Assembly: GCA_012962155.1 (NCBI GenBank)
Contig: DTXZ01000058.1
Span: forward strand, 1-47,650
From: Aquificales bacterium
GTDB lineage: Bacteria; Aquificota; Aquificia; Aquificales; QOAS01
Reading direction: 5' to 3'
Length of the DNA stretch: 47,650 nucleotides
Part shown: piece after piece, positions 4,602-26,657 of the stretch
Numbering within the stretch: position 1 is the first letter of the stretch
Layout: each line of letters begins with the position of its first letter
Position numbers and translations under genes: made by a program
The notes under the pieces: model-generated
Database searches by the model: none
Seen by the model: only the letters and a program-made list of their open reading frames with translations
Told to the model about the DNA's origin: nothing

Positions 4602-6455
4602 ATGATAGCCGCGGAAATTCTTGCGTCTATTTTACTACCTTGGATTTCGGCGTTGGTAATTTATGTATTAAACAACCACAGGGTGTCGGTTTTCCTCACG
4701 GTGTTAAATTTCGTAATTCTAACCATTATAGGGTTACACCTATGGTTTAGCGTGAATAATCCAATAACCTTGCACCCCCCTCACCTTGTAGATTGGTTAC
4801 TATTGGTTTATGACTACGGCCTACTACTTTATTTCTTCAAACAGGGTATAGAAAACCGAAACCCCCTAGTATCGGTTCTAGCGGTTATTCAGATTTTCTT
4901 GCTCTCGTGGGTGGTACTTATAAGACCCCATTCGGAAGTTCCCAATATTTACATTGACAAACTCACGGTGTTTATGTATTTAATCGTAGGCTTCGTAGGT
5001 TCGCTAATTACCCTTTTCGCCACGAGGTATATGCAAGATGAAAATCCAGTAAGGGAAGGAGAATTCGTAGCTATATTGGTTTGGTTTCTCGGAGTTATGA
5101 ATTTCATAGTGAGTGTGAATAACATTGAATGGTTTTTCGCACTCTTTGAAACTACCACTTTGGCATCTTATCTTCTCATCCGTTTTAGAGGAGATACGGT
5201 TTCCGTAAATAACGCCCTTTTAGCCCTTTGGATGAACCAAATAGGTGGTATTACCATTTTGCTTGCTCTACTATTTGCTATTCACAAATACGGAATTACC
5301 CACTTCTCCCAATTCGGGGAACATACCCAATTGGCTCTCTTTCCATTAGCATTTTTAAGCGCGGCCGCCTTGGTAAAGGGTGCCCAAATGCCTTTCCACC
5401 GTTGGTTGTTGGGAGCAATGGTTGCCCCCACACCGGTTAGCGCTATTTTACACTCCGCAACAATGGTTAAGGTTGCCCCCTATTTAATTCTCCGTCTCTC
5501 TCCCTTTATAAAAGGGACCCTGTTGGCAAAGCTTATAGTCGTATTTACCGGTTTTGTCTTCGTGGTAACCGCACTCTTAGCCCTAAACGAAACCCACTTT
5601 AAAAGAATACTCGCTTATTCCACCATCTCTCTACTTTCCCTAATGATGTTGGCGGGTACCATCGGCACCCCCATCACAATTACCGTTGCCCTAATGCTTA
5701 TAGCTTTCCACGCCGTTGCCAAGGCACTGCTCTTTTTGGAAGCGGGAGTTTTGGAAAAGAGATATCACGCGAAAACTATTTACGACCTCAAGCACATTAT
5801 CAACAAAGCTCCTCTAACAGTTTTCTTCATATTGGTAGGTTTCCTTAGCATGACTATGGTTCCCTTTGCAATGTTTGTAGCCAAATGGTTAATGATTTCC
5901 GAAATGTCGGAGTTGTTAAGCAAGGCTTCCTATATTATCACCGTTGCAATCTTGGCTATAGGTGGTGCTATCTTGACCGTTCTTTATCTAAAAATTCTCG
6001 GTCTAACAATTAACCGCGACGAGGAAAGCTTTAGGGTAAAAATAGAGAAACTGCCGAGTCTATATACCATTCCCAATGTTATTTATGTAGTTCTTATACT
6101 GATAGCAACGCTATTTATTAACACATTCTTGGTATACTTCTTTGCTCCCATAACCCAATCAATAATTGGTTACATACCCCCCTTCTGCGAAGGTTTAAGC
6201 GTATGTATAAAGAACTTACAACTACCCTTCTGGCAGATAATCATAGCATTCTTCTTTGTGGTATTTTTCCCGATAATAGCCCATTACATCCACTTCAAAA
6301 CGGATAGAACCGCTGAATATTCTTGTGGAGAGCCTGTAAAACCCCGAATTAGCACTTATAACATGGTCTGTTTAAACAAAGTTAGTACCTACTTTGAAAG
6401 TATATCCCTAGCCCTTTTTGTCCTTGTTTTGGTTATCGGGGGAGGAATGCTTTAA
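4602..6455 (+). CDS. echA: Ech-type hydrogenase membrane subunit A (NuoL/Mrp antiporter-like)
   Basis: 617-aa polytopic membrane ORF. KGAQMPFHRWLLGAMVAPTPVSAILHSATMVKVAPYL is the NuoL/M/N-MrpA/D signature. It is the first gene of a six-gene cluster in echABCDEF order. GGAGGT lies 7 nt upstream. Confidence 0.85.
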   Translation: MIAAEILASILLPWISALVIYVLNNHRVSVFLTVLNFVILTIIGLHLWFSVNNPITLHPPHLVDWLLLVYDYGLLLYFFKQGIENRNPLVSVLAVIQIFLLSWVVLIRPHSEVPNIYIDKLTVFMYLIVGFVGSLITLFATRYMQDENPVREGEFVAILVWFLGVMNFIVSVNNIEWFFALFETTTLASYLLIRFRGDTVSVNNALLALWMNQIGGITILLALLFAIHKYGITHFSQFGEHTQLALFPLAFLSAAALVKGAQMPFHRWLLGAMVAPTPVSAILHSATMVKVAPYLILRLSPFIKGTLLAKLIVVFTGFVFVVTALLALNETHFKRILAYSTISLLSLMMLAGTIGTPITITVALMLIAFHAVAKALLFLEAGVLEKRYHAKTIYDLKHIINKAPLTVFFILVGFLSMTMVPFAMFVAKWLMISEMSELLSKASYIITVAILAIGGAILTVLYLKILGLTINRDEESFRVKIEKLPSLYTIPNVIYVVLILIATLFINTFLVYFFAPITQSIIGYIPPFCEGLSVCIKNLQLPFWQIIIAFFFVVFFPIIAHYIHFKTDRTAEYSCGEPVKPRISTYNMVCLNKVSTYFESISLALFVLVLVIGGGML

Positions 6456-6470
6456 AAGGAGGGTAGAACA

Positions 6471-7307
6471 ATGAAGGGTATCCTTTTCACCTTCGCTTTA
6501 CTATCCCCTATTATCGGGGGATTGATTTACGGATTGGAGAGGAAGTTCAAAGCCCGCATGCAAAATCGACAGGGACCTCCTATTCTTCAACCTTTTTATG
6601 ACTTTTTCAAGTTGACGGACAAAAGAGCCTTACAGGTGCATTCCTTTCATAGCTTAATGGGAATAGCATTCTTTGTAGCCGCATGGTTTGCCGTATTTGC
6701 CCTCCTTATTGGACCTAATATCCTTATTGCGATATTTCTCCACGTATTGGCATTGCTATTCTTTACAGCCGGTGGATTTAGCGTTAAGTCTCCCTATAGC
6801 GTAATGGGTGCGTTGAGAGAACTTGCCCATATATTAGCCGCCGAACCTATATTGGTTTTTGCGGCTATAGCCCTCTATCTATCAACGGGTTCTTGGAATA
6901 TTGAAGGGATTTTAACTTCCAATACAGTACCTATCCTCCAGATGCCTTTGCTATTCTGTGCTTTAGTTCTTACGGTTCCTATATTGTTGAAACGTTCCCC
7001 CTTTGATATATCGGAAGCCCACCAGGAAATTATTGGCGGGGCAGAAATAGAATACAGCGGGCTTTTTTATGAAGCGGTTTATACCGCCAAGTGGCTGGAA
7101 TATATTTTCATAGGGGTAATAGTGTTCCTTTTTGGAGGCTCCAACTATTTATTAGGAGCGCTATTGGTAGCTGCAACCTTCTTATTCGTTTGGCTACTGG
7201 ATAACGCCACAACCCGTTTGACTATTCACTACATGATGAAGTTTGCATGGGGAATTCTACTTCCTTTGGCGGCGTTTAACATCTTTTGGGTTGCTATTTG
7301 GAGGTAA
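6471..7307 (+). CDS. echB: Ech-type hydrogenase membrane subunit B (NuoH/HycD-like)
   Basis: 278 aa. It has ERKFKARMQNRQGPP near the N-terminus and RSPFDISEAHQEIIGGAEIEYSG, both hallmark NuoH/HycD/EchB motifs. Confidence 0.88.
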   Translation: MKGILFTFALLSPIIGGLIYGLERKFKARMQNRQGPPILQPFYDFFKLTDKRALQVHSFHSLMGIAFFVAAWFAVFALLIGPNILIAIFLHVLALLFFTAGGFSVKSPYSVMGALRELAHILAAEPILVFAAIALYLSTGSWNIEGILTSNTVPILQMPLLFCALVLTVPILLKRSPFDISEAHQEIIGGAEIEYSGLFYEAVYTAKWLEYIFIGVIVFLFGGSNYLLGALLVAATFLFVWLLDNATTRLTIHYMMKFAWGILLPLAAFNIFWVAIWR

Positions 7308-7312
7308 GGGCA

Positions 7313-7870
7313 ATGTTCGGATTTTTTAAAAAGTTTAGAAAGAAGTCTCCTTGGATACTTCACTATAACACCGGTAGTTGTAACGGGTGCGATATAGAGA
7401 TAATGGCCTGCTTAGGTCCCAAATACGACTTGGAAAGATTTGGAATTATTAATAAAGGAAACCCCAAACAGGCGGACATTCTCCTAGTTACAGGCCCGGT
7501 TACTAAAAGGGCGAGAGCCCGCCTTCTCCGTCTCTATATGCAGATGCCCGAACCCAAGGTGGTAGTTGCGGTAGGAGCCTGTGCCTGCACCGGTGGAGTT
7601 TTCAGACATATGTACAATGTCGAAAATGGAATAGATAGATTTATTCCCGTAGATGTTTATATTCCCGGATGTGCAGCCCGACCCGAAAATATCATTGAAG
7701 GGATAAAAAAAGCAATAGAAATTTGGGAAAGGAAACAAAAAGAGAAAGTGGAAGTCCCCAAGGTTCTTAAAGAGATTCCCGATGTTGAAACCTTAGACCG
7801 TAGGGAGATTATAAGCAAGTTGGAGGAAAAATACTCCGAGAGATTAGTCATTGAGGAGGATGAGAAATGA
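7313..7870 (+). CDS. echC: Ech-type hydrogenase small subunit (NuoB-like, one [4Fe-4S])
   Basis: Start taken at ATG 7313, after GGAGGTAAGGG. The cluster Cys residues lie in GSCNGCDIE, GACACTGG and IPGCAARPE. A roughly 50-aa charged C-terminal tail lies beyond the conserved core. Confidence 0.88.
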   Translation: MFGFFKKFRKKSPWILHYNTGSCNGCDIEIMACLGPKYDLERFGIINKGNPKQADILLVTGPVTKRARARLLRLYMQMPEPKVVVAVGACACTGGVFRHMYNVENGIDRFIPVDVYIPGCAARPENIIEGIKKAIEIWERKQKEKVEVPKVLKEIPDVETLDRREIISKLEEKYSERLVIEEDEK

Positions 7871-8226
7871 AAAATTTTGAAGAGATACAAGTTTCCCTTT
7901 CCGAACTTAGGGAGGCTATAAAGAGGTTCTACAAACCCGAAGAGTGGCACTTTATAACCATAAATGGAACCGATGTAGGGGACGGGATAGAGATAAAGTA
8001 TTTCTTCGCCGCTTACGGGAAAAGTAAAAAGGTAAAGGCTTTTTCCCTAAAAATAGACTACAACCAAACTATTCCTTCTATTAGAGACATAATACCCTCC
8101 GCCTGGATAGCGGAAGAGGAACTAAAAGACCTATTAGGGGTGAATGTAGAGGGAACAAAGGGGGGTATATTCCTAGAGCCCGACTCTCCCCAAGCCCCTT
8201 TGAGGAAGGAGGTGAAAAATGGGTAA
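7867..8226 (+). CDS. echD: Ech-type hydrogenase subunit D (short NuoC-like)
   Basis: 119 aa. The start overlaps the echC stop (ATGA). The position and size match EchD/MbhK-type NuoC homologues. The ...AEEELKDLLGVNVEG... block resembles the NuoC ERE..D..G core. Confidence 0.75.
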   Translation: MKNFEEIQVSLSELREAIKRFYKPEEWHFITINGTDVGDGIEIKYFFAAYGKSKKVKAFSLKIDYNQTIPSIRDIIPSAWIAEEELKDLLGVNVEGTKGGIFLEPDSPQAPLRKEVKNG

Positions 8227-9304
8227 AAAATTTGTCGTCCCCTTTGGTAGTCAACATATAGCTATCCCCGAACCTATAAGGTTTATATTCACCACGGAGA
8301 ACGAGATAATTAAAAGTGTCTCGGTTGATTTTGGATATGTTCACAGGGGTATTGAAAAGGCCTGTATGACCCGCTATAAATACACCCAAGTTCCCTATGT
8401 GGTAGCCCGTGTATGCGGATTATGTGCCGTATCCCAAGCCACTGCATACTGTATGGCAATAGAATCCCTTATGGATATAGAAATTCCCGAGAGGGCTAAG
8501 TATCTGCGAATTATCGTCCACGAAATGGATAGAATTCACTCCCATCTTTTTGCCATTGCCCACCTAAGCGAAGCGGCGGGATACGAAAACCTTTTCATGA
8601 GGGTGATGAGAGATAGGGAATTCGTTATGGAGTGTCTAGAAATCCTAACCGGAAATAGAATTCAAGCCGACTATAGCACAATAGGAGGGGTAAACCGAGA
8701 CCTTACAAAGGAGGTTTACGAAATCTTAAAACCGCGTTTGGATGAACTTGAAAGAAGACTTTACGAACTTAAAGAGATTTTTGAAAGAGATTATACCCTC
8801 CAAAAGAAGTGGAAGGGAATTGGGGTTATTACACTTGAAATGGCCCAAAAATATAATGCAGTGGGACCCGTAGCGAGGGCCTCGGGACTGGCGACCGACT
8901 GTAGGGTTGAATTTGAATACCTTCCCTATAAGGAGTTGGATTATAAAATGGTTCTCTACCAAGAGGGAGATGTATGGGCTAGGAACATGGTCCGTCTGGA
9001 TGAAACTTTGGTCTCTATAAGGGTGCTAAAAAATGCCATAGACAATCTCCCCGAAGGGGATATAAAAGTAAAAGTAAAAGGCAATCCTAAAGGTGAAGCC
9101 CTTATAAGGTGGGAAGCACCAAGGGGAGAACTTCTTTATTACGTAAAAGGTAACGGAAAATCGGTACTGGAAAGGTTGAGAATTAAAACCCCAACCTTTA
9201 GCGTTATACCGGTCATGAAAGAGCTTTATTACAACCAACCTTACGCTTTTGTTCCCGATATAACTATTAGCTTTGATCCCTGCCTATCTTGCAGCGCCCG
9301 TTAG
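8219..9304 (+). CDS. echE: group-4 [NiFe]-hydrogenase large subunit (NuoD-like, EchE type)
   Basis: 361 aa. Both NiFe ligand pairs are present: RVCGLC near the N-terminus and DPCLSCSAR at the extreme C-terminus. GYVHRGIEK block present. AGGAGGTG lies upstream of the ATG. Confidence 0.92.
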   Translation: MGKKFVVPFGSQHIAIPEPIRFIFTTENEIIKSVSVDFGYVHRGIEKACMTRYKYTQVPYVVARVCGLCAVSQATAYCMAIESLMDIEIPERAKYLRIIVHEMDRIHSHLFAIAHLSEAAGYENLFMRVMRDREFVMECLEILTGNRIQADYSTIGGVNRDLTKEVYEILKPRLDELERRLYELKEIFERDYTLQKKWKGIGVITLEMAQKYNAVGPVARASGLATDCRVEFEYLPYKELDYKMVLYQEGDVWARNMVRLDETLVSIRVLKNAIDNLPEGDIKVKVKGNPKGEALIRWEAPRGELLYYVKGNGKSVLERLRIKTPTFSVIPVMKELYYNQPYAFVPDITISFDPCLSCSAR

Positions 9305-9315
9305 GAGGAAAGAAG

Positions 9316-9726
9316 ATGTTTAAAATGTTTCTTTTTTCTTTAAAAAATCTCTTTTCCAAACCGGCAACTTTACCGGAAGGAACGGAAAAACCTAAGCAAT
9401 ATAGGGGCCTTATTAAGTATTACGAGGAAACCTGTATCTATTGCAAAAAGTGTGAAATGGTGTGCCCTCCCGGAGCTATCATCTTTACCTATCCCGAAGA
9501 CGGTTCCAAGAGATTGATATTCCACTATAACCCTTATTTATGTATTTATTGCGGAGAGTGTGTGAGGGCTTGCCCCAAACCGGGAACTCTGGTTCAAGTG
9601 GAAGATACCGCCCCCCCCGCCACCGCCCAAGATAAACCTAACGATCTTTGGTTTGAAGTTGAAAAGGAAGCCGTTGAAAGTAAAAAAATCTGGCAAGAAG
9701 CCCGCCGTAAGAAACGTAACAAATGA
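9316..9726 (+). CDS. echF: Ech-type hydrogenase 2x[4Fe-4S] ferredoxin subunit (NuoI-like)
   Basis: Start at ATG 9316, after AGGAGG (9303-9308). It has two CxxCxxCxxxCP motifs (CIYCKKCEMVCP, CIYCGECVRACP) and a basic C-terminal tail. Confidence 0.88.
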   Translation: MFKMFLFSLKNLFSKPATLPEGTEKPKQYRGLIKYYEETCIYCKKCEMVCPPGAIIFTYPEDGSKRLIFHYNPYLCIYCGECVRACPKPGTLVQVEDTAPPATAQDKPNDLWFEVEKEAVESKKIWQEARRKKRNK

Positions 9727-9935
9727 ACTTCTCCCAATTGCGGAGCTTGGAACGGTTTCACCCCACTTTTTTTTAAAAATTTTTTCTTTTCCCGTTCTTT
9801 ACTATAAGAAAGAAACCCGACAAAAGTCATAGTGTAAGCTTTTACTTTCCAAAAAAACACTTATTAAAAGTTTTATTGCGTTTTGAAATATAGCAATATA
9901 AGAAAATTAGCGATTTCTTTTTCGGAGGTTAGGCC

Positions 9936-10277
9936 ATGCTAGCGGCTTTTATAACTTTTGTGGTTGCCCTTCTGGCTACGGCTGTACTCTTTTGGGTGAT
10001 AGCTTTGCTATATGCACCAAAAGGGGAATCGGTAGCCAAACACGTTCCCTACGAATGCGCTGTTCCTCCCGAAGGGCCCCTACCAAAGAAATCCAACTTC
10101 AGATACTACTTTTTCGGAATTCTGTTCCTAGTTATGGATATGGTTGGAATGTTTATCGCTTTGGAAGCGATAACTAATGGACAGGCTATCTGGATTTATT
10201 TACTTTTTGTAATACCGCTTCTCCTCGCTATCTGGCACATTATAGGAGGTAAAAAATATGTTGACCAAGTTTCTTGA
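9936..10277 (+). CDS. nuoA: NADH-quinone oxidoreductase-like complex, subunit A
   Basis: 113 aa with three hydrophobic segments. It has the PYEC motif of NuoA. GGAGGT lies upstream. It is the first gene of the nuoABCDHIJKLMN array. Confidence 0.85.
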   Translation: MLAAFITFVVALLATAVLFWVIALLYAPKGESVAKHVPYECAVPPEGPLPKKSNFRYYFFGILFLVMDMVGMFIALEAITNGQAIWIYLLFVIPLLLAIWHIIGGKKYVDQVS

Positions 10278-10788
10278 CTTTTTCGGTTGGGCTAGGGCTA
10301 ACAGCCCCTGGATGGTCCACTACTGTTCCGGATGTTGTTCATTAGAGATATTGGCGCTTATGGGTCCCAGATTTGACTGGGAACGTTACGGTTTTATGCC
10401 GGTTCCCTCCCCCCGTCAGGCTGACTTTATAGTTATTACAGGATTGATATCAAGAAAGGTTCTCCCCGTACTTTTAATGACCTACGACCAGATGCCCAAA
10501 CCTAGATACGTATTCGCCATAGGTTCCTGTGCATTTGATGGTGGACCCTATTACGACTCCACTTCGGTTGTTACCAACGTTCCCGAAATATTGCCTCCCG
10601 ATGTATTCGTAGCCGGATGCCCTCCAACCCCCGAAGCCATACTGGAAGGCCTTCTTGAAATGAAGAAGATTATTAGGGAAAAGAGGGAAGCCCGTGCAGA
10701 AAGGGAGGGAACTTGGAAAGAAATTCTCAAACAGGAATTGGAAAAGAATCCTTTACTGTCGCAACAACCTTTCTTTGTCGGAGGATAA
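10258..10788 (+). CDS. nuoB: complex I-like subunit B (N2 [4Fe-4S] carrier)
   Basis: 176 aa. It has SGCCSLE (tandem Cys typical of NuoB), GSCAFDGGPY and VAGCPPTPE. Confidence 0.9.
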   Translation: MLTKFLDFFGWARANSPWMVHYCSGCCSLEILALMGPRFDWERYGFMPVPSPRQADFIVITGLISRKVLPVLLMTYDQMPKPRYVFAIGSCAFDGGPYYDSTSVVTNVPEILPPDVFVAGCPPTPEAILEGLLEMKKIIREKREARAEREGTWKEILKQELEKNPLLSQQPFFVGG

Positions 10789-10852
10789 AACTTGTTATCC
10801 GTAATGGTTTCTCTTTACCTTTCTTCTCAATTTTTCCCGCAGGAGGGGTTTT

Positions 10853-11317
10853 ATGGGTTTTGAAAATTTTGTAAAGTTAATGAAAAGTTACTTTGGGGTG
10901 GAAGCGGAAGAATACCCCCAAAACCACACGGCTAAAACCTATCTCTTTAAGATAAAACCGGAGTATATTAGGGAAGTTGCAAAACTTTTAAAGGAAAATG
11001 GATTTGACTTTTTCCATACATTGGCTCCGGTGGATTACTCGCCCAAGGGTAGGGGATTGGAACTTAATTACTTTTTTGAGAATGTGGAAGAAAGGATTTG
11101 GATTCTTATTAAAACCGAAATTCCTTTAGACAATCCCGAAATAGATTCCCTACACGATATTTATCCCTCCTTAGAAGCCTGCGAAAGGGAAGAGTGGGAA
11201 AAATTTGGTATTTTCTTCAAAGGACATCCCAGACTAAAGCCGCTGCTATTGGACGATACCCTACAAGGTAGATGGGTTCTGAGGAAATCTTACATTCCCG
11301 AACCCCATAGGAAATAA
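10853..11317 (+). CDS. nuoC: complex I-like subunit C
   Basis: 154 aa. CEREEWEKFGIFFKGHPRLKPLLL matches the NuoC ERE..D..G..F.GHP signature. Confidence 0.88.
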   Translation: MGFENFVKLMKSYFGVEAEEYPQNHTAKTYLFKIKPEYIREVAKLLKENGFDFFHTLAPVDYSPKGRGLELNYFFENVEERIWILIKTEIPLDNPEIDSLHDIYPSLEACEREEWEKFGIFFKGHPRLKPLLLDDTLQGRWVLRKSYIPEPHRK

Positions 11318-11332
11318 AACGGAGGTTTTGCT

Positions 11333-12460
11333 ATGTATAAAGGGGCACAAATAATAACCGAACCGATAGGTAAAGAAGGCGACTTAATGGTTTTAAACTG
11401 GGGTGTGCAACACCCCGCATCGGGGCCTATGAGGATTAAAGTCTGGCTTGACGGGGAAACCATAGTAAAGGTTGAAAACGACCCCGGATACGTAACCCGT
11501 AACATGGAAAAAATGTTGGAATACCGAACTTGGGAAAATGCGGTGGTTAATGTTGAAAGGATTTGTTTCATAGACGACTTGGGAACTATCTTAAATTGGG
11601 CTTTAGCGATAGAAAAACTGGCCGAAGTGGAAGTTCCCAAAAACGTGGAATATTTCAGGGTAATACTGGCGGAAGTAGGAAGAATAGTTTCCCACCTCAT
11701 AGGTGTGGGAGGAATGTTTGGAGCCTTAGGAGTTGCTACACCAATGATGTGGGTTCTCTCTCTCAGGGAGTTTTATCTAGACTTTTTGGAACACTACTCG
11801 GGTTACCGAATATCAACTGCCGCCATAGTTCCCGGTGGAGTTAGATTTGAACCCACAAAAGAGGACATGGAATTACTTAAAAAGGCTATAAAGGAAACCG
11901 AAAAAAGATGGCCCGAATACAAAGAGGTATTTAAAGATAACCCCACATTGGTTGAAAGGTACAAGGGTGTGGGAATTATACCCAAAGAGCTGGTTTACAA
12001 ATTGGGTCTAAGGGGGCCCGTTGCAAGGGCTTCGGGAGTGGCTTACGATTACAGAAAAACCTACCCTTATAGCTCCTACGAGGATTTTAACTTCAATGTA
12101 GTCGTAAAGGAAGAGGGAGATGCCTACGCCCGGTTTTTGGTAGTCCTTGAGGAAATAGAGGAATCGGTAAAGATTATCAAACAGGCAATGGAAGGAATGC
12201 CCGAAGGGGACAAATGGAAGGTCAGGGTACCCAAAAAGATAAAAGCGGGCGAAACCTTTTCCGCGGTAGAATGGGCTAGGGGAGGTATAGAGTATTTCGT
12301 AGTAAGCGATGGGGGAACGGAACCTTACAGGGTTAAAATTTCTGCCCCCTCGTTCATGAACATTTGGGCTCTGGAATACATTGCTCCCGGTCACAAGTTG
12401 GCGGACTTGGCGACAATATTTGCAAGCCTTTACATCTGCCACGGAGATTTGGACAGATAA
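11333..12460 (+). CDS. nuoD: complex I-like subunit D, atypical (no canonical quinone ligands; two residual hydrogenase-position Cys)
   Basis: 375 aa. It has NuoD/NiFe-large-subunit fold blocks (GVQHPASGPMRI, GYVTRNMEK, GLRGPVARASGVAYDYRK, RVKISAPSF, terminal GDLDR). It has RICFID where hydrogenases have RxCGxC and canonical NuoD has R.DY.. . The C-terminus is SLYICHGDLDR. Confidence 0.88.
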   Translation: MYKGAQIITEPIGKEGDLMVLNWGVQHPASGPMRIKVWLDGETIVKVENDPGYVTRNMEKMLEYRTWENAVVNVERICFIDDLGTILNWALAIEKLAEVEVPKNVEYFRVILAEVGRIVSHLIGVGGMFGALGVATPMMWVLSLREFYLDFLEHYSGYRISTAAIVPGGVRFEPTKEDMELLKKAIKETEKRWPEYKEVFKDNPTLVERYKGVGIIPKELVYKLGLRGPVARASGVAYDYRKTYPYSSYEDFNFNVVVKEEGDAYARFLVVLEEIEESVKIIKQAMEGMPEGDKWKVRVPKKIKAGETFSAVEWARGGIEYFVVSDGGTEPYRVKISAPSFMNIWALEYIAPGHKLADLATIFASLYICHGDLDR

Positions 12461-12473
12461 GGAGGGGTTAAAA

Positions 12474-13421
12474 ATGGATTGGGGGTGGATACTTTTTAAA
12501 ACCCTGGTTTTTCCGGGATTAACTTTCCTACTGCTGGTCATATTTGCAACCTTTTACCTTGAAAGGAAACTGGTTGCCGATATGCACGGTAGAACTGGTC
12601 CTTACTACGTTGGTCCCTATGGACTTTTGCAAACGGTGGCGGATATATTTAAAATCCTCCAAAAAGAGGTAATAATTCACAGGGAAGCGGATAAGCTCCT
12701 ATTTTTGGTAGTTCCCGCCGTTGCCTTCTTTATGGTGGCATTGGTAGCAGCCTTTATCCCTTATTCGGAAACTCTCTGGATAGTTTCCACTCCTTACGAC
12801 TTGGTTATTTCCTTGGCACTACTTACGTCTCTACCGGCTATATTCCTTTTTGCGGGATGGGTTTCCAAGAGTAAATATCCCTTCATAGGAGGTATTAGAG
12901 TTATAAACCAGCTAATTTCCGGTGAAATTCCTTTGTGGTTGGCGGGTCTTTCGGTAGCCCTTTGGTATGGAACTTTCAATTACGTTGAAATAGTTCAAAA
13001 ATTTGACCTTATAGGTTTTCTCGTTAATTTGGTGGGTTTCGTAATATTTCTGGTGGCAATTCTCATAGTTGCGGACAGACCTCCCTTTGACATACCCGAA
13101 GCGGAACAGGAAATTGTTTACGGTTTCCTTACCGAGTATACGGGAGTCGGTTACCTACTTTTAGCTGGTGCTAAATTCTTGGAAATTTTCGTATTGGCGG
13201 CAATGACCGTAACCCTCTTTTTAGGTGGATTTAAAGGACCTTTCCTCCCCGGTTGGGTATGGTTCTTAATAAAGATATTTACGGTATATTACTTGGCTTT
13301 TGCGATAAGAGCTTCCACCCCACGTATTAGGCTGGACCAACTCATCAAATTTACTTGGAACATACTGGTTCCGTTGGCACTACTGAACATTGTTTTCATA
13401 CTGGTTATAAAAGCGTTGTAA
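12474..13421 (+). CDS. nuoH: complex I-like subunit H
   Basis: Start at ATG 12474, after GGAGGGG. It has ERKLVADMHGRTGPYYVGPYGLLQTVADIFK and RPPFDIPEAEQEIVYGFLTEYTG. Confidence 0.9.
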   Translation: MDWGWILFKTLVFPGLTFLLLVIFATFYLERKLVADMHGRTGPYYVGPYGLLQTVADIFKILQKEVIIHREADKLLFLVVPAVAFFMVALVAAFIPYSETLWIVSTPYDLVISLALLTSLPAIFLFAGWVSKSKYPFIGGIRVINQLISGEIPLWLAGLSVALWYGTFNYVEIVQKFDLIGFLVNLVGFVIFLVAILIVADRPPFDIPEAEQEIVYGFLTEYTGVGYLLLAGAKFLEIFVLAAMTVTLFLGGFKGPFLPGWVWFLIKIFTVYYLAFAIRASTPRIRLDQLIKFTWNILVPLALLNIVFILVIKAL

Positions 13422-13434
13422 GGAGGTAAGGATT

Positions 13435-13887
13435 ATGCTAAATAAAATTTTGGAAAAAATAGTTTTAGTAGCATCCAGGGCGACCAAACCCAAAGATACT
13501 ACATACTTTCACGAAAGTAGACCGAAGAAACCGGCAAGGTTTAGGGGAAAACATTTCATCAATGCCGAAACTTGCATAGGTTGTTACGCCTGCGAAAGGG
13601 CTTGCCCCATAGGGGCTATTATTATGGTTCCCACCGGACTTAAAAGACCCAGGGCTATGCCTACGGTGAATTTAGGAAGGTGTTGCTATTGCGGTCTCTG
13701 CGAAGATGCCTGCCCTACCAAGGAGAAATCTATATATCTAACGGAGAAATACGAGATGATAGTGGAAGAGGTTGAACTTACCCCTCTAATAGACGATCTG
13801 TGGGCTAAACCGGTAGGAGATATTACCAAAAACCCACTTGTGATTAAGGACTTACAAAAACAAAAGCAACAGAAGGAGGGTAAATAA
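13435..13887 (+). CDS. nuoI: complex I-like subunit I (2x[4Fe-4S])
   Basis: 150 aa. It has RFRGKH followed by CIGCYACERACP and CCYCGLCEDACP. Confidence 0.9.
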   Translation: MLNKILEKIVLVASRATKPKDTTYFHESRPKKPARFRGKHFINAETCIGCYACERACPIGAIIMVPTGLKRPRAMPTVNLGRCCYCGLCEDACPTKEKSIYLTEKYEMIVEEVELTPLIDDLWAKPVGDITKNPLVIKDLQKQKQQKEGK

Positions 13888-14363
13888 TGTTCCTTTACTT
13901 TACCATTCTCTTTTTAATAGTTATTGCAACCGCAATAGCGGCTATAGAACTAACCAACTTTATATGGGTTTTGGTGGCCTTCGCCACGCTACTAACGGAA
14001 ATAGCCCTGTTTTATTTTTCCTTAGGTTTTCCTCTATTGGGGGCCTTTCAGCTGGCGGTTTACGCGGGTGGAGTTGCAATTCTGGTGCTATTTACAATTC
14101 TCACTATAGGCGAAAGGGAAGAGGAAAAAAAGGAAAGCAAATTGGCCGCAGGGGTAGCGATTGCTATATTTATCACCGGTGTAATAGCCTCTATATGGAC
14201 CGGACTTAATACCAAACCTTATTTGAATATAAGCCTTCAGGAACTCGGTAACGTGTTTATTGAAAAATACGCTTTATTGGTGATTCCATTGGGTTTTACC
14301 GCGGTGGGGATTATTTTCGGTGCTTACTACCTACTTTCCAAAAAACTACAAGGGGAGGAATAG
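13887..14363 (+). CDS. nuoJ: complex I-like subunit J
   Basis: 158-aa hydrophobic ORF. Its position and size fit NuoJ. FQLAVYAGGVAILVLF resembles the conserved NuoJ TM3 block. The start overlaps the nuoI stop (TAATG). Confidence 0.8.
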   Translation: MFLYFTILFLIVIATAIAAIELTNFIWVLVAFATLLTEIALFYFSLGFPLLGAFQLAVYAGGVAILVLFTILTIGEREEEKKESKLAAGVAIAIFITGVIASIWTGLNTKPYLNISLQELGNVFIEKYALLVIPLGFTAVGIIFGAYYLLSKKLQGEE

Positions 14364-14364
14364 G

Positions 14365-14676
14365 ATGCAATTCACCCAAGAACCTATGCTCTGGTTTCTG
14401 CTTGTGGCGGTATCGCTATTGGCGATAGGGGTTTACGGACTGCTTTCCCGAAAGTCTATTTTAAAGATGATAATCTCCATAGAAATTATCGTAAACGGGG
14501 CAAATGTAGGATTGGCAGCCTTTGCCACCCAACACGGGGCGGACGGAGTTATTTTGGCTTTCTTCGCAATAGCGTTGGCGGCTCTTGAAGTAGCGGTAGG
14601 TTTGACCTTGCTAATAATCCTTGCCCGTAAATATAGTATCACCTTCCCCGAAAAAATAAACAACCTGAGGTGGTAA
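14365..14676 (+). CDS. nuoK: complex I-like subunit K
   Basis: Trimmed to ATG 14365 (103 aa). It has three TM segments with GLLSRKSILKMIISIEII.NG and AALEVAVGLTLLI typical of NuoK. Confidence 0.85.
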   Translation: MQFTQEPMLWFLLVAVSLLAIGVYGLLSRKSILKMIISIEIIVNGANVGLAAFATQHGADGVILAFFAIALAALEVAVGLTLLIILARKYSITFPEKINNLRW

Positions 14677-14678
14677 AG

Positions 14679-16511
14679 ATGGAGTGGCTAATTTACTTGT
14701 CGGTGTTGCTACCGATTTTTGGAGCACCAATCATTTGGTTTATAAGTCACTACACCAATAAATGGTTCTCTTGGTATTTATCTCTGGCGGTTACAGGTTT
14801 TTCCGCATTAGTAGCATTGTTAACCGCCCTGCAGGTGGCGGGGGGAGCTAAATTTGAACACTCCTTCACCTGGTTTAATTTCGGAGGGGTAGAGGTTCCC
14901 TTCGGAATTTACGTTGACGGAATGTCCACAGTAGTTTACGCAATGGCGGCACTCTTAGGGTTTCTTATAGTTATATACTCCCGCGGTTACATGGAACACG
15001 ACGAAAGTCCCCATAGGTTCTTCATGAAGGTTACCTTCTTCATAGGTTCTATGCTAGGACTCACCGTATCGGACAACCTAATAGGAATGTTTATCTTCTG
15101 GGAGTTTATGGGATTGGCTTCTTACCTACTTATCTCTTATTGGTATTACAAAAACAGTGCCGCCGATGCAGGTTTGAAAGCTTTCCTTATGACAAAATTT
15201 GCCGACGGATTCTTCTTGGCCGGAATAGTGCTTCTCTGGTGGTATAGCGGGAGCCTAAAAGTTGTCGAAATCAACCATCTTGCGGAAACAGCAGGAATAC
15301 CTTTATTTATAGCGGCCGTTTCCGCACTCTTAATGTTCGGAGGAGCCATAGGAAAATCGGCCCAATTCCCGCTGTTCCCGTGGCTACTAGACGCTATGGA
15401 AGGTCCCACACCCGTTTCCGCGTTAATTCACGCCGCAACAATGGTCAATGCGGGTGTTTTCTTGGTAGGTAGATTATTTGACTTTTACACTTATTCGGGA
15501 GTTCTATATGTGGTGCTTGCAATCGGTGCGATTTCCGCTTTCATAGCGGTTCTCGGAGCCATGGTTCACAGGGAAATTAAAAAGATAATCGCTTTTTCAA
15601 CAATGGAAAACCTTGGACTTATGTTCGTCGGATTGGGAGCCGGTTCTTTGGCCGCAGGTATTTTTCACCTAGTTTCCCATGCGACCTTTAAAGCACTAAT
15701 GTTCCTATCCGCAGGTAACGTTATCCACTTTACCCACGAAAAAGATGCCTTTAAAATCCGCGGACTTAGGAAATTTATGCCCTATACCGCAATACTATTT
15801 CTTATAGCTTTACTTTCCCTAGCGGGCATACCTCCCTTAAGCGGATTCTTCTCCAAAGAGTGGATTGTTCACGAAGCCAAGTTAAGCGGCGACCCCATAG
15901 CGTTTGCCTTTGTTTTAACCGCCGCAGTATTGACCATCTACTACGGTTTTAGATTGTGGTTCCAAATCTTTACTGGAGAACCCAACGAAATTGCAAAACG
16001 TGCAAAGGAAGCTTACCTCGTCATGCTAATACCTTTGGTAGTCTTGGCGGTTTTAACTTTCCTGGTAGGGATTTTCCATCAATCTATAGTTCACCTTATA
16101 GAACGGCATGCCCACATTCCCCACGATTGGGGGTTAACCATTTTGGTATTCTCCCTAATGGCGGTAGCCTTCGGCTTGGCTTGGCTTATTTACTACAAGA
16201 GGGCTATTGATACCGAAGAACTGATGAAAGACCCCATCGTATCTGCACTAAACAAAGTTTTCTACAACTCCTTTTTTGTAGACTTTCTCCTGCGTTGGCT
16301 ATCCAGAAACTTTGTGGTTGAATTCCTAGCCTTGCTCGCCCACTGGCTTGATAGAAACGTCTACGACTATATCGTTAATGGGGTTGCTAAAACCGCCCTG
16401 TGGACCTGGGAAAAGGTTAAAATTATACAAACCGGTAACCTAATTCATTACCTAACTATTTTTGTTAGTGGTGCAATAGTCCTTTACTACCTTTACCTCG
16501 TAATACTCTAA
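14679..16511 (+). CDS. nuoL: complex I-like subunit L (antiporter-like, with C-terminal lateral-helix region)
   Basis: ATG 14679 follows GAGGTGG (GTG 14670 is an alternative start). It has FWEFMGLASYLLISYWY and GKSAQFPLFPWLLDAMEGPTPVSALIHAATMVNAGVFL. Confidence 0.9.
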   Translation: MEWLIYLSVLLPIFGAPIIWFISHYTNKWFSWYLSLAVTGFSALVALLTALQVAGGAKFEHSFTWFNFGGVEVPFGIYVDGMSTVVYAMAALLGFLIVIYSRGYMEHDESPHRFFMKVTFFIGSMLGLTVSDNLIGMFIFWEFMGLASYLLISYWYYKNSAADAGLKAFLMTKFADGFFLAGIVLLWWYSGSLKVVEINHLAETAGIPLFIAAVSALLMFGGAIGKSAQFPLFPWLLDAMEGPTPVSALIHAATMVNAGVFLVGRLFDFYTYSGVLYVVLAIGAISAFIAVLGAMVHREIKKIIAFSTMENLGLMFVGLGAGSLAAGIFHLVSHATFKALMFLSAGNVIHFTHEKDAFKIRGLRKFMPYTAILFLIALLSLAGIPPLSGFFSKEWIVHEAKLSGDPIAFAFVLTAAVLTIYYGFRLWFQIFTGEPNEIAKRAKEAYLVMLIPLVVLAVLTFLVGIFHQSIVHLIERHAHIPHDWGLTILVFSLMAVAFGLAWLIYYKRAIDTEELMKDPIVSALNKVFYNSFFVDFLLRWLSRNFVVEFLALLAHWLDRNVYDYIVNGVAKTALWTWEKVKIIQTGNLIHYLTIFVSGAIVLYYLYLVIL

Positions 16512-16524
16512 AGGAGGATAGAAA

Positions 16525-17958
16525 ATGTTGCTGACCACAATAATACTTCCCGTTTTGCTCGCACCTTTTGCTTACTTCTTTGAAAGGCAAGCTAAATACC
16601 TCTCGCTCTTTGCGGGGATTTTTGTAACCTTCGTAGGTCTTTACCTATGGACTAACTATCCCGGACACGGATTTGCCTTTGAGGAATTTTACCCCATATT
16701 CCCCCAATGGGATTTCAACCTCCACCTCGGAGTGGATGCCCTATCCATAGCCTTAATAACTTTAACGGGAATCATAGCCATTCTTGTAACCCTTTCATCG
16801 TGGAATATAAATTGGCAGGGAGCCTACTTCTTCCTAATATTGATCTTCTTGGGTGCAATGGTAGGAGTCTTTGCCTCCCTAAACTACCTATGGTTCTTTA
16901 TATTCTGGGAATTCACCCTGGTACCGATGTTTTTCCATATAGGTATCTGGGGGGCGGAAAATAGAATTTATGCGGCTGTAAAATTCTTTCTATATACCCA
17001 CTTGGCGTCTATATTCCTCTTCCTAGCAATTTTGATAATTTTTATTAAAACCGGCCACTTTGACTTTCTTGCTATAAAGCAAGCCAATATTCCTCTGGAT
17101 TTACAAAAAGTTATTTGGGCGTTAGCCTTTATAGGTTACATCGTTAAAATGCCTGTAGTCCCCTTCCACACTTGGCTTCCCGATGCCCACGTTCAGGCCC
17201 CCTCTCCCATATCGGTAATCTTGGCGGGCTTACTTTTGAAAATGGGAGCTTATGGACTTCTCAGGTGGAACATAGAACTATTTCCCGAAGCGTCCAAACA
17301 TTTCATCTACCTTATGTTGGCAATAGGACTGCTTACCGTTTTCCACGCCGCCTTTAAAGCCCTTTACGAGGACCACGTCAAGAGAATGGTAGCCTACTCC
17401 TCTATAAACCACATGGGATTGGTTTTGGTAGCCTTGGCTACCTTAACATCGGTGGGTATAAGCGCGGCAATATACGAAATGGTGGCCCACGCCCTTATTA
17501 TCTCCCTAATGTTTATGGTTGCGGGTTATATACATCACATTACGGGAACTTGGTATATTTCCGAAATAGGCGGTGGATTTTTACGAAAGTTTCCCTTTAT
17601 AGGAACCCTTTATGTATTGGGTGCCCTTGGAGCATTGGGATTCCCCGGAACCGCCGGATTTATCGGTGAAGTTACCGCCATTTACGCCGCCTTTGACAAA
17701 TTTGGTTGGTTGGCCCTCTCGTTACCTTTCTCCGCTGTTCTCACCGCCGGGTTCTTCTTCTGGGCTATAAGAAGGATGCTTCACGGTGAGGAGAGCAAAA
17801 AGGTTTCCCAACTACATATCCATCCCCTTCCCACGGTGGAAAAGCTTCCTCTAGTGGTCTACGTTGCCCTATTTATATTCCTCGGTGTGGCTCCTTCCCT
17901 TCTATTCAACTTCATTAACGGTTACACCCAAACCTTAGGAAAGATTTTGGGAGGTTAA
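16525..17958 (+). CDS. nuoM: complex I-like subunit M
   Basis: 477 aa. It has VKMPVVPFHTWLPDAHVQAPSPISVILAGLLLKMGAYG. AGGAGG lies upstream. Confidence 0.9.
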   Translation: MLLTTIILPVLLAPFAYFFERQAKYLSLFAGIFVTFVGLYLWTNYPGHGFAFEEFYPIFPQWDFNLHLGVDALSIALITLTGIIAILVTLSSWNINWQGAYFFLILIFLGAMVGVFASLNYLWFFIFWEFTLVPMFFHIGIWGAENRIYAAVKFFLYTHLASIFLFLAILIIFIKTGHFDFLAIKQANIPLDLQKVIWALAFIGYIVKMPVVPFHTWLPDAHVQAPSPISVILAGLLLKMGAYGLLRWNIELFPEASKHFIYLMLAIGLLTVFHAAFKALYEDHVKRMVAYSSINHMGLVLVALATLTSVGISAAIYEMVAHALIISLMFMVAGYIHHITGTWYISEIGGGFLRKFPFIGTLYVLGALGALGFPGTAGFIGEVTAIYAAFDKFGWLALSLPFSAVLTAGFFFWAIRRMLHGEESKKVSQLHIHPLPTVEKLPLVVYVALFIFLGVAPSLLFNFINGYTQTLGKILGG

Positions 17959-17962
17959 AAGG

Positions 17963-26628: not shown

Positions 26629-26657
26629 TGGGGTTAAAAATTAAACTAAAACTTCTA

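What the first reader, a model, noticed from the sequence alone, without database searches (positions are those of the whole stretch)
11333..12460. NuoD-like subunit lacks both canonical quinone ligands and keeps one Cys from each ancestral NiFe-ligand pair
I aligned the 45 residues from GY... to ...EKL, gaplessly and by eye, against Thermus thermophilus Nqo4 as I remember it (GYLHTGFEK...PRMDYLHSF...AVEKL).
- RICFID of this protein falls opposite RMDYLH, so the Tyr that binds the quinone head group (Y87 in Thermus numbering) is Phe here.
- The HPSTHG loop His (H38) is also absent. The loop reads HPASGPMR, one residue shorter and with no His.
- The Cys of RICFID sits where the first Cys of the hydrogenase RxCGxC motif sits (compare RVCGLC in the EchE paralogue 3 kb upstream).
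- The C-terminus is SLYICHGDLDR, with a Cys at the position of the first Cys of DPCxxCxxR. Canonical NuoD has ...SLDPVMGDVDR-type ends without Cys.

The catalytic pocket therefore looks intermediate between a group-4 hydrogenase and a true quinone reductase. This resembles what is reported for Mbx/MBS-type subunits that retain only a subset of NiFe Cys, although that comparison is from memory. Here, however, it is embedded in a complete complex-I membrane arm (NuoA, H, J, K, L, M, N). The electron acceptor of this 11-subunit complex may therefore not be a conventional quinone.
Basis: partly seen in the sequence, partly recalled or inferred. Interest (0 to 1): 0.75.

Follow-up and report, generated by a model that had tools for sequence, protein, structure and literature searches.

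The report
Ancestral-type complex I with hydrogenase-relic cysteines
This gene encodes the catalytic subunit of an 11-subunit complex-I-like proton pump that lacks the usual quinone-binding His and Tyr and keeps two cysteines left over from its hydrogenase ancestor; the sequence observation is correct, but the same pattern was already published in 2015 for close relatives, and what the enzyme reduces is still unknown.

Summary
HMMER alignment to Thermus Nqo4 puts a one-residue gap at His38, Phe79 at Tyr87, Cys78 at Asp86 and Cys369 at Val403. Asp139, Thr135, Phe146/147 and Asp401 are also replaced. P. furiosus MbsL (sulfane reductase MBS) has the same short His-less loop and the same two Cys.

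The signature is invariant across a 100%-bootstrap clade: Aquificota, including Desulfurobacterium and Thermovibrio, plus the fused NuoCD of Campylobacterota. Identity within the clade falls to about 41%. The clade lies outside canonical NuoD.

This is not new. Degli Esposti (2015, PMC4758237) reported these "first and third" NiFe Cys and the missing quinone residues in the "ancestral NUO11" of Desulfurobacteriales and Nautiliales.

What I add:
- The partner NuoB carries CxxCC, which is the MbsJ Cys25 equivalent plus the tandem Cys pair of complex I.
- The proximal cluster therefore probably has four Cys ligands, unlike MBS, which has three.
- NuoH is clearly of the complex-I type.

My best reading is a ferredoxin-linked, NuoEFG-less proton pump that passes electrons to menaquinone in a remodelled pocket, or runs in reverse. 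A non-quinone acceptor such as sulfane sulfur is not excluded. I class it as a new member of a known but biochemically uncharacterised kind.

The parts
11333..12460 (+). nuoD-like gene (375 aa), the catalytic 49-kDa-type subunit. It has a short His-less beta1-beta2 loop (H27-R34, 11411-11434), R76-I-C78-F79-I-D81 (11558-11575) and the C-terminal S365-L-Y-I-C369-H-G-D-L-D-R375 (12425-12457).
   Evidence: NCBIfam NF004739 scores 361.7 bits against a cutoff of 360; TIGR01962 scores 323 against 459. The AF2 model has pLDDT 89.5 and a TM-score of ~0.9 to 49-kDa subunits.
10258..10788 (+). nuoB (176 aa). Motif H21-Y-C23-S-G-C26-C27-S-L-E (10318-10347), plus C91 (10528) and C121 (10618). C26/C27 are the tandem N2 ligands and C23 is the MbsJ C25 equivalent.
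   Evidence: The N-terminal 53 residues hit MbsJ 6u8y_J best (E 2e-14), which reads FC25TGC28GGIE.
9936..10277 (+). nuoA (113 aa)
   Evidence: Weak NuoA NCBIfam hits; PF00507.
10853..11317 (+). nuoC (154 aa)
   Evidence: TIGR01961; PF00329.
12474..13421 (+). nuoH (315 aa), membrane anchor and substrate tunnel, of the complex-I type.
   Evidence: NF004741, 286 bits. PDB scores: E. coli NuoH 171 bits, Nqo8 150, MbhM 53, MbsM 52.
13435..13887 (+). nuoI (150 aa), 2x[4Fe-4S] ferredoxin-like subunit and the likely electron entry side.
   Evidence: TIGR01971. Two CxxCxxCxxxCP motifs are visible in the translation.
13887..14676 (+). nuoJ (13887-14363) and nuoK (14386-14676). NuoK keeps both membrane Glu residues.
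   Evidence: PF00499 and PF00420; translation.
14679..19393 (+). nuoL (14679-16511), nuoM (16525-17958) and nuoN (17963-19393), three antiporter-like subunits with the conserved TM5 Glu and TM7/TM12 Lys motifs.
   Evidence: PF00361 and PF00662; motifs.
4602..9726 (+). Neighbouring echABCDEF operon: a genuine group-4 [NiFe] hydrogenase (EchE has RVCGLC and DPCLSCSAR). It lies 210 nt upstream on the same strand. This is context only; the adjacency is not conserved in relatives.

Best explanation
This is a member of the deep-branching 'ancestral NUO11' clade of complex-I-like enzymes, found in Desulfurobacteriales-type Aquificota and, with fused NuoCD, in Campylobacterota.

Shown:
- A complete complex-I membrane arm (NuoA, H, J, K, L, M, N) with intact pump residues.
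- No NuoEFG in the cluster.
- A NuoB whose proximal cluster has the four complex-I Cys, including the tandem pair, plus an extra MbsJ-like Cys23.
- A NuoD pocket that matches MbsL rather than Nqo4: no His38, Tyr87 or Asp139, with Cys78 and Cys369 kept.

Inferred mechanism:
- Reduced ferredoxin docks at the NuoI side. This is the same carrier that the neighbouring Ech hydrogenase uses.
- Electrons pass through the two NuoI clusters to a fully Cys-ligated N2-like cluster.
- From there they pass to a membrane-borne two-electron acceptor in the NuoB/D/H chamber, which drives proton pumping.
- The most likely acceptor is menaquinone, bound in a remodelled site where Tyr/His367, His/Gln370 and the Cys thiols could replace the canonical H-bond and proton donors.
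- The enzyme could equally run backwards, using menaquinol and proton-motive force to reduce ferredoxin for the reductive TCA cycle.
- The three conserved Cys near the cluster are under selection, but their role is unknown. They could be structural, tune the redox potential, or form a dithiol/disulfide.
For: Family placement:
- The NJ tree of 66 sequences gives 100% bootstrap for Aquificota plus Campylobacterota. This clade lies outside the 99%-supported canonical NuoD clade.
- The signature is invariant within the clade.
- Degli Esposti 2015 describes the same clade and the same residues.

Complex-I-type features:
- NuoB tandem Cys.
- NuoH scores 171 and 150 bits to quinone-reducing NuoH against 52 to MbsM.
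- Pump motifs are present in NuoK, L, M and N.
- NuoD scores higher to Nqo4 (254 bits) than to MbsL (206 bits).

Ferredoxin as donor:
- No nuoEFG in the cluster.
- An Ech operon lies next door.
- Published host physiology is reductive-TCA autotrophy that needs reduced ferredoxin.

Menaquinone as a plausible acceptor:
- Desulfurobacterium contains MK-7.
- Fpo reduces methanophenazine without H38 and D139 and with vestigial Cys.
- The clade occurs in MAGs labelled Sulfurimonas and Sulfurovum, genera I know as sulfur oxidisers.
Against: - Every canonical quinone-headgroup ligand and proton donor is gone, together with T135, F146/147 and D401.
- The only solved enzyme with this pocket, MBS, does not use quinone.
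- Degli Esposti 2015 inferred that this clade predates effective quinone reactivity.
- T. ammonificans has this cluster and also a second nuo cluster that includes nuoEFG, so the two may have different jobs.
- The 11-subunit complex was barely detected in D. thermolithotrophum proteomes.
- No biochemical data exist for any member.
- The Ech adjacency is not conserved.
Confidence: 0.5

Rival explanations
1. It is a ferredoxin-dependent sulfane-sulfur (polysulfide) reductase, a bacterial functional analogue of MBS built on a complex-I membrane arm. Polysulfide would enter the hydrophobic chamber and be reduced at or near the proximal cluster, possibly through a Cys78/Cys369 (and NuoB Cys23) dithiol/disulfide.
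For: - The pocket matches MbsL, and the NuoB N-terminus matches MbsJ best of all PDB chains.
- The three-Cys set (MbsJ C25, MbsL C85 and C385) is reproduced exactly and is invariant.
- According to the literature, the cultured hosts (Desulfurobacterium, Thermovibrio, Caminibacter, Nautilia) are H2-oxidising sulfur reducers.
- D. thermolithotrophum lacks psr/sre, mbs and sqr, and its sulfur-reduction route is unknown.
- A DsrE-family gene follows nuoN in D. thermolithotrophum.
Against: - The MBS mechanism needs an Fe site with no Cys ligand. MbsJ has Gly29 where this NuoB has Cys27, so the cluster here is probably fully ligated.
- MBS C85A/C385A and C25A mutants keep their activity.
- The membrane arm and NuoH are of the complex-I type, not the Mrp/MBS type.
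- The clade also occurs in MAGs labelled Sulfurimonas, Sulfurovum and Thiotrichales; as far as I know, most cultured members of these groups oxidise rather than reduce sulfur.
- The Nautilia paper lists a polysulfide reductase (Psr) among its quinone-linked modules.
- The DsrE linkage is seen in one genome only.
Confidence: 0.22
2. It is an ordinary NADH:menaquinone complex I whose NuoEFG module is encoded elsewhere, as annotated for D. thermolithotrophum. On this view the unusual residues are neutral lineage-specific drift.
For: - The D. thermolithotrophum paper assigns a separate nuoEFG operon to this complex.
- NCBIfam NF004739 (NuoD) is just passed, 361.7 bits against 360.
- The fold is standard, with a TM-score of ~0.9.
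Against: - Drift cannot explain strict invariance of C78, F79, C369 and NuoB C23 down to ~41% identity, or their recurrence in other lineages.
- TIGR01962 is failed, 323 bits against 459.
- The Nautilia genome paper reports no nuoE, F or G.
- T. ammonificans carries a separate nuo cluster with its own nuoEFG. Its NuoD is named as the TIGR 'NADH dehydrogenase I, D subunit'.
- The clade lies outside canonical NuoD.
Confidence: 0.1
3. It is a ferredoxin-oxidising pump that hands electrons to a soluble or protein acceptor rather than to a membrane carrier. Candidates are NAD(P)+ through a separate module, or a disulfide reductase partner, as was once proposed for Mbx and for the Fpo-like complex of Methanomassiliicoccales.
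For: - Degli Esposti 2015 proposed ferredoxin to NADP+ transfer 'as in mbx' for this clade.
- The same paper cites a proposed Fpo-like complex that reduces a disulfide reductase directly.
Against: - The Mbx precedent has since been reassigned to sulfane reduction (MBS).
- No partner gene is conserved next to the cluster.
- The chamber-forming NuoH and NuoA are retained.
Confidence: 0.08

Closest known systems
'Ancestral NUO11/NUO10' complexes of Desulfurobacteriales and Nautiliales (Degli Esposti 2015, Genome Biol Evol, PMC4758237)
   Same: The gene order nuoABCDHIJKLMN without EFG is the same. NuoD keeps Cys at Thermus positions 86 and 403 and lacks H38, Y87 and D139. The window protein is 56-58% identical to NuoD of Desulfurobacterium and Thermovibrio and groups with it at 100% bootstrap.
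   Different: The window protein comes from a separate, uncultured Aquificota lineage (375 aa; 80-94% identical only to metagenomic sequences). Here the cluster sits directly behind an Ech operon. The 2015 text places the first appearance of the NuoB Cys doublet in Fpo, whereas every member I examined has CxxCC. Its figures are not held, so I could not check them.
[quoted passage not shown] 2020)
   Same: MbsL has the same short His-less beta1-beta2 loop, the same RIC motif and the same C-terminal Cys. MbsJ has the same FC-T-G-C motif. H38 and Y87 are absent. Ferredoxin is the likely donor.
   Different: MBS has an Mrp-type membrane arm with two pumps, and its proximal cluster has only three Cys ligands (Gly29 where this NuoB has Cys27). 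MbsM scores only 52 bits to this NuoH. Overall, this NuoD scores higher to Nqo4.
Canonical respiratory complex I (T. thermophilus Nqo4/Nqo6/Nqo8; PDB 4HEA)
   Same: The core architecture of 11 conserved subunits, the tandem-Cys N2 ligation, the NuoH tunnel subunit, three antiporter-like subunits and the 49-kDa fold are all shared.
   Different: There is no NuoEFG. H38, Y87, D139, T135, F146/147 and D401 are all replaced. Two NiFe-relic Cys are kept, and the ~35-residue Nqo4 insertion (300-338) is absent.
Ferredoxin-dependent 11-core-subunit relatives: cyanobacterial/chloroplast NDH-1 and archaeal Fpo/Fpo-like complexes
   Same: They also lack NuoEFG. Ferredoxin is the donor in NDH-1 (my background knowledge). 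According to Degli Esposti 2015, Fpo lacks H38 and D139 and keeps vestigial Cys yet reduces a membrane carrier, methanophenazine.
   Different: In the NdhH alignment of Yu et al. 2020 the canonical His and Tyr are reported absent only from MBS, which implies that NdhH keeps them. Fpo keeps Y87. Both have accessory donor-binding subunits that are not seen here.

Membership tests
Ancestral NUO11 clade (Desulfurobacteriales/Nautiliales type) | A contiguous nuoA-B-C-D-H-I-J-K-L-M-N cluster without nuoEFG | tested here: met
Ancestral NUO11 clade (Desulfurobacteriales/Nautiliales type) | NuoD keeps the first and third NiFe Cys (Thermus positions 86 and 403) and has lost the second and fourth | tested here: met
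   C78 and C369 are present; D81 and D372 occupy the second and fourth positions
Ancestral NUO11 clade (Desulfurobacteriales/Nautiliales type) | NuoD lacks H38, Y87 and D139 | tested here: met
   Gap, F79 and A131 respectively
Ancestral NUO11 clade (Desulfurobacteriales/Nautiliales type) | Groups phylogenetically with Desulfurobacterium, Thermovibrio and Nautiliales NuoD | tested here: met
   NJ tree, 100% bootstrap. NuoB scores fall from 225-395 bits inside the clade to 147 or less outside it
Canonical NADH:quinone oxidoreductase NuoD (TIGR01962 equivalog) | Profile score above the curated cutoff | tested here: not met
   323 bits against a cutoff of 459.35. The looser NF004739 is passed only just, 361.7 against 360
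Canonical NADH:quinone oxidoreductase NuoD (TIGR01962 equivalog) | Quinone headgroup ligands His38 and Tyr87, with Asp139 | tested here: not met
Canonical NADH:quinone oxidoreductase NuoD (TIGR01962 equivalog) | N-module (NuoEFG) for NADH oxidation | tested here: inconclusive
   Absent from the cluster and from the 47.6-kb window. The rest of the genome is not available
Canonical NADH:quinone oxidoreductase NuoD (TIGR01962 equivalog) | Tandem Cys ligands of cluster N2 in NuoB | tested here: met
   C26 and C27 align with Nqo6 C45 and C46
MBS (membrane-bound sulfane reductase) | MbsL-type pocket: C85 and C385 retained, no H38 or Y87 | tested here: met
MBS (membrane-bound sulfane reductase) | Site-differentiated proximal [4Fe-4S] cluster with only three Cys ligands | tested here: not met
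   MbsJ reads C28-G29; this NuoB reads C26-C27, so a fourth Cys is available. This is a sequence-level inference only
MBS (membrane-bound sulfane reductase) | Mrp-derived membrane arm (MbsA-H, H') | tested here: not met
   The arm is Nuo-type, with NuoA, H, J, K, L, M and N
MBS (membrane-bound sulfane reductase) | Ferredoxin-dependent polysulfide reduction | not testable with these tools
   Needs enzyme assays
Group 4 [NiFe] hydrogenase large subunit | Four Cys ligands (RxCGxC and DPCxxC) | tested here: not met
   Only two of the four are present. The neighbouring EchE has all four

The most novel reading that the evidence does not exclude
The invariant three-Cys set next to a fully ligated N2 cluster (NuoB Cys23, NuoD Cys78 and Cys369) is a working redox or sulfur-handling site. 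On this reading the clade is a complex-I-architecture enzyme that reduces sulfane sulfur, or another non-quinone acceptor. That would make it the missing membrane-bound sulfur reductase of Desulfurobacteriaceae, and a living intermediate between MBS and quinone-reducing complex I.
Probability: 0.2. Interest if true: 0.8.

Novelty: new member of a known kind. Interest (0 to 1): 0.35.

Why it matters
If the acceptor of this clade were determined, it would date the step at which complex I acquired quinone chemistry relative to the step at which it acquired its full four-channel membrane arm.

The clade combines a complete complex-I pump with an MBS-like catalytic pocket. It is therefore the natural test case for the proposal that the four NiFe Cys were lost stepwise from MBH to MBS to complex I.

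It could also explain two open points in hydrothermal-vent autotrophs: how they reduce sulfur, and how they make reduced ferredoxin. These organisms lack known enzymes for some of these steps.

As a sequence observation it is a rediscovery, so the value lies in the unanswered biochemistry rather than in the finding itself.

Tried and rejected
1. Structure. An AF2 model of NuoD was built (pLDDT 89.5) and searched against the PDB with Foldseek. All top hits are 49-kDa/NuoD chains with a TM-score of ~0.9. This confirms the fold but cannot separate a quinone pocket from a sulfane pocket. The tool returns no coordinates, so the Cys-Cys distance could not be measured.

2. Ech adjacency. I considered it as evidence for a functional Ech-Nuo unit and rejected it as general evidence. 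The 88%-identical relative L005 and D. thermolithotrophum have no Ech upstream.

3. DsrE gene after nuoN. I considered it as a sulfur link. It is present only in D. thermolithotrophum among the loci held.

4. Thermodynamics. I considered arguing that four pump channels are too many for ferredoxin-to-polysulfide transfer. I dropped this as decisive because, from standard midpoint potentials I recall, NADH-to-menaquinone complex I works with a similar energy span (about 47 kJ per 2e-) to the 41 kJ per 2e- quoted for MBS.

5. Rest of the window. I searched it for menaquinone-biosynthesis or sulfur-metabolism genes and found only housekeeping genes.

6. Literature. I found no biochemical work on any clade member. 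PMC9585477 was irrelevant.

7. First bootstrap tree with Biopython timed out. I redid it with my own distance code.

8. I could not retrieve the NuoD of the second T. ammonificans cluster (Theam_0734), so I could not check its residues. Only its annotation name is known.
Full report
**What is there**

The window carries an echABCDEF operon (4602-9726). It encodes a true group-4 [NiFe] hydrogenase, and its EchE has RVCGLC and DPCLSCSAR. After a 210-nt AT-rich gap comes a contiguous nuoA-B-C-D-H-I-J-K-L-M-N cluster (9936-19393) with no nuoEFG. The finding concerns nuoD (11333-12460, 375 aa). The window matches hydrothermal-type metagenome contigs. The closest named relative, at 88% identity, is a MAG labelled Aquificae/Aquificota. 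The remaining 28 kb is housekeeping: FabD, EF-G, S7/S12, LeuA, MoaA, a branched-chain polyamine synthase and others.

**Check of the observation**

The phmmer alignment to T. thermophilus Nqo4 (E 2e-74) confirms each point made by eye.
- The HPSTH38G loop is HPAS-G here, one residue shorter, with the gap at His38.
- R84-M-D86-Y87-L-H89 is R76-I-C78-F79-I-D81.
- SLDPV403MGDVDR is SLYIC369HGDLDR.
- Against EchE and P. furiosus MbhL, C78 and C369 occupy the first Cys of each NiFe-binding motif. The second Cys of each motif is Asp.
- Further Q-site residues are also replaced: T135->G, D139->A, F146/F147->M/M, D401->Y.

MbsL (6u8y_L) aligns in one ungapped-loop stretch and reads QHMATENF, RIC85VPE and SLDNC385PPDIDR. 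Yu et al. 2020 state that C85 and C385 are the two retained NiFe Cys and that the H38 and Y87 equivalents are absent.

**Conservation**

Among the best 120 database homologues, 113 carry the signature HPAS-GP[MIL]R / ERxCF[IM]D[DN] / S[LM][YHN]xC[HQ]GD[LIV][DG]R. They form three groups.
- The window's own lineage: 80-94% identity, 375 aa, metagenomic only.
- The Desulfurobacterium/Thermovibrio group: 53-59% identity, ~388 aa. It includes D. thermolithotrophum, D. pacificum and T. ammonificans ADU97456.
- Fused NuoCD proteins of Campylobacterota: 40-44% identity, ~547 aa. Examples are Caminibacter and MAGs labelled Sulfurimonas, Sulfurovum and Nautiliaceae.

C78, F79 and C369 are invariant, whereas mean column identity across a 13-sequence sample of the family is 54%. 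The Cys residues are therefore under selection and are not decaying relics.

An NJ tree (66 sequences, 367 columns, 100 bootstraps, rooted on MbhL) gives these results.
- The family is monophyletic at 100%.
- The canonical HPSTHG/DY NuoD clade, including Nqo4, is supported at 99%.
- MbsL and an archaeal short-loop group lie between the two and are unresolved.

**Wider survey**

An exhaustive HMMER search of 1.84 billion cluster representatives found 8835 relatives. At 50% clustering the family collapses to two representatives. About 20 of the best 150 representatives from other lineages also keep only the first and third Cys. Two of them sit in Nuo-type clusters:
- L087, with RACFLE and DVCPADLDR.
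- L088, with RFCFMD and DYCPGDSDR.

The state "first and third Cys only, no Tyr" is therefore widespread among non-hydrogenase relatives.

**Prior art**

Degli Esposti (2015, PMC4758237) calls the nuo operons of Desulfurobacteriales and Nautiliales the most ancestral form. The paper makes three relevant statements.
[quoted passage not shown] So the observation, and the idea that the acceptor is not a quinone, are both already published for the sister group. The window protein is a new, more divergent member. Later physiological papers still treat the complex as an ordinary NADH dehydrogenase. I found no biochemistry on any member.

**What the partner subunits add**

*NuoB.* Every family member has H[YF]C[ST]GCCSLE, whereas canonical NuoB reads TFGLACCAIE. 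The N-terminal 53 residues of the window NuoB hit MbsJ best of all PDB chains (E 2e-14), and MbsJ reads FC25TGC28GGIE.
- Cys23 is the equivalent of MbsJ Cys25.
- Cys26 is the equivalent of MbsJ Cys28 and Nqo6 Cys45.
- Cys27 is the second tandem Cys of complex I (Nqo6 Cys46), where MbsJ has Gly.
- In MBS the proximal cluster has only three Cys ligands, and the free Fe is the proposed catalytic site. Here a fourth ligand is available, so an MBS-type open Fe site is unlikely. This is a sequence-level inference.
- The same CxxCC recurs in L087 and L088, whose NuoD is also C-F-C. The NuoB Cys and the NuoD Cys pair therefore travel together.
- In MBS, C25A and C85A/C385A mutants keep in-vitro polysulfide reductase activity. 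The reason for their conservation is unexplained there too.

*NuoH.* It scores 171 bits to E. coli NuoH and 150 to Nqo8, but only 52-53 to MbsM and MbhM.

*Pump subunits.* NuoK, L, M and N keep the conserved Glu and Lys pump motifs.

*Overall.* The Q-module subunits B and D score only modestly lower to MBS than to complex I. NuoB scores 144 bits to NdhK against 140 to MbsJ. NuoD scores 254 bits to Nqo4 against 206 to MbsL. The membrane part is unambiguously complex I.

**Mechanism**

*Shown:* a complete complex-I pump without an NADH module, a proximal cluster that probably has four Cys ligands, and an MbsL-like pocket.

*Inferred:* ferredoxin is the donor, because there is no NuoEFG, an Ech operon is adjacent, and related cultured hosts are reductive-TCA autotrophs. 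A membrane-borne acceptor binds in the NuoB/D/H chamber.

I favour menaquinone, in either direction, with confidence of about 0.5 for the whole reading. The reasons are:
- The tandem Cys pair.
- The complex-I-type NuoH.
- The presence of MK-7 in Desulfurobacterium.
- The Fpo precedent, an enzyme reported to reduce a membrane carrier without H38 and D139 and with vestigial Cys.
- The occurrence of the clade in MAGs labelled as sulfur-oxidising genera.

Conserved polar residues in the pocket could replace the lost H-bond donors: Tyr/His/Asn367, His/Gln370 and the two thiols. This is speculative.

The main rival, at about 0.2, is MBS-like sulfane-sulfur reduction. It is supported by the pocket, by the sulfur-reducing lifestyle of the cultured hosts, and by the lack of any known membrane sulfur reductase in D. 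thermolithotrophum. It is weakened by the fourth Cys ligand, by the MBS mutant data and by the taxonomic spread.

An ordinary NADH:MK enzyme with NuoEFG encoded elsewhere is unlikely. The signature is invariant, and T. ammonificans has a second nuo cluster with its own EFG whose NuoD carries the strict TIGR name and was detected in the proteome.

**Verdict**

The intermediate, MBS-like pocket is real. "Not a quinone" remains open.
- Novelty: a new member of a known, published, but biochemically uncharacterised kind.
- Interest is moderate (0.35). The sequence finding is a rediscovery, but the clade is a good experimental handle on how complex I acquired quinone chemistry. The co-conserved NuoB Cys is a small addition to what is published.

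Noticed in passing
window 10318-10347 (NuoB H21-E30); also L005-L023, L027, L087, L088: NuoB carries C23-x-x-C26-C27, which is the MbsJ Cys25 equivalent plus the complex-I tandem pair. This is invariant in the family. It recurs in two other Nuo-type clusters whose NuoD is also Cys-Phe...Cys, and in an archaeal (Hecatella) cluster whose NuoD has no Cys.
   Followed up: yes
window 4602-9726 and the gap 9727-9935: A complete echABCDEF [NiFe] hydrogenase operon lies 210 nt upstream of nuoA on the same strand. The adjacency is absent in the 88%-identical relative L005 and in D. thermolithotrophum, so it is specific to this lineage.
   Followed up: partly
L085:18174-18524 (D. thermolithotrophum): A DsrE-family (sulfur-relay-like) gene starts 35 nt after nuoN. 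It was not found next to the cluster in any other locus held.
   Followed up: partly
L012, L015, L016: Three MAGs labelled Francisella, Piscirickettsiaceae and Thiotrichales carry the Campylobacterota-type fused nuoCD cluster and form their own 100%-bootstrap subclade. This is either horizontal transfer into Thiotrichales or misbinning.
   Followed up: no
L087 (ENA contig k141_518116) and L088 (Logan SRR21462135_762468): These are other Nuo-type clusters with a C-F-C NuoD. L087 has the gene order J-K-B-C-D-H-I with four antiporter-like genes and a divergently oriented nuoA. L088 has a NuoB-NuoC fusion and a PaREP1 neighbour, which suggests Thermoproteota.
   Followed up: partly
T. ammonificans (literature; P0124 = ADU97456): Thermovibrio has two nuo clusters: Theam_1488-1498 (11 genes; this family) and Theam_0731-0745 (with nuoEFG and a regulator). 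NuoD, NuoF and NuoG of the second cluster were detected in the proteome. I could not read the residues of Theam_0734.
   Followed up: partly
window 26586-28670: A 694-aa ORF on the + strand has no Pfam match at E<=1e-5.
   Followed up: no
window 44321-45385: A branched-chain polyamine synthase (BpsA_C, E 3e-103), which I associate with thermophiles and which fits a hot-vent Aquificota host.
   Followed up: no
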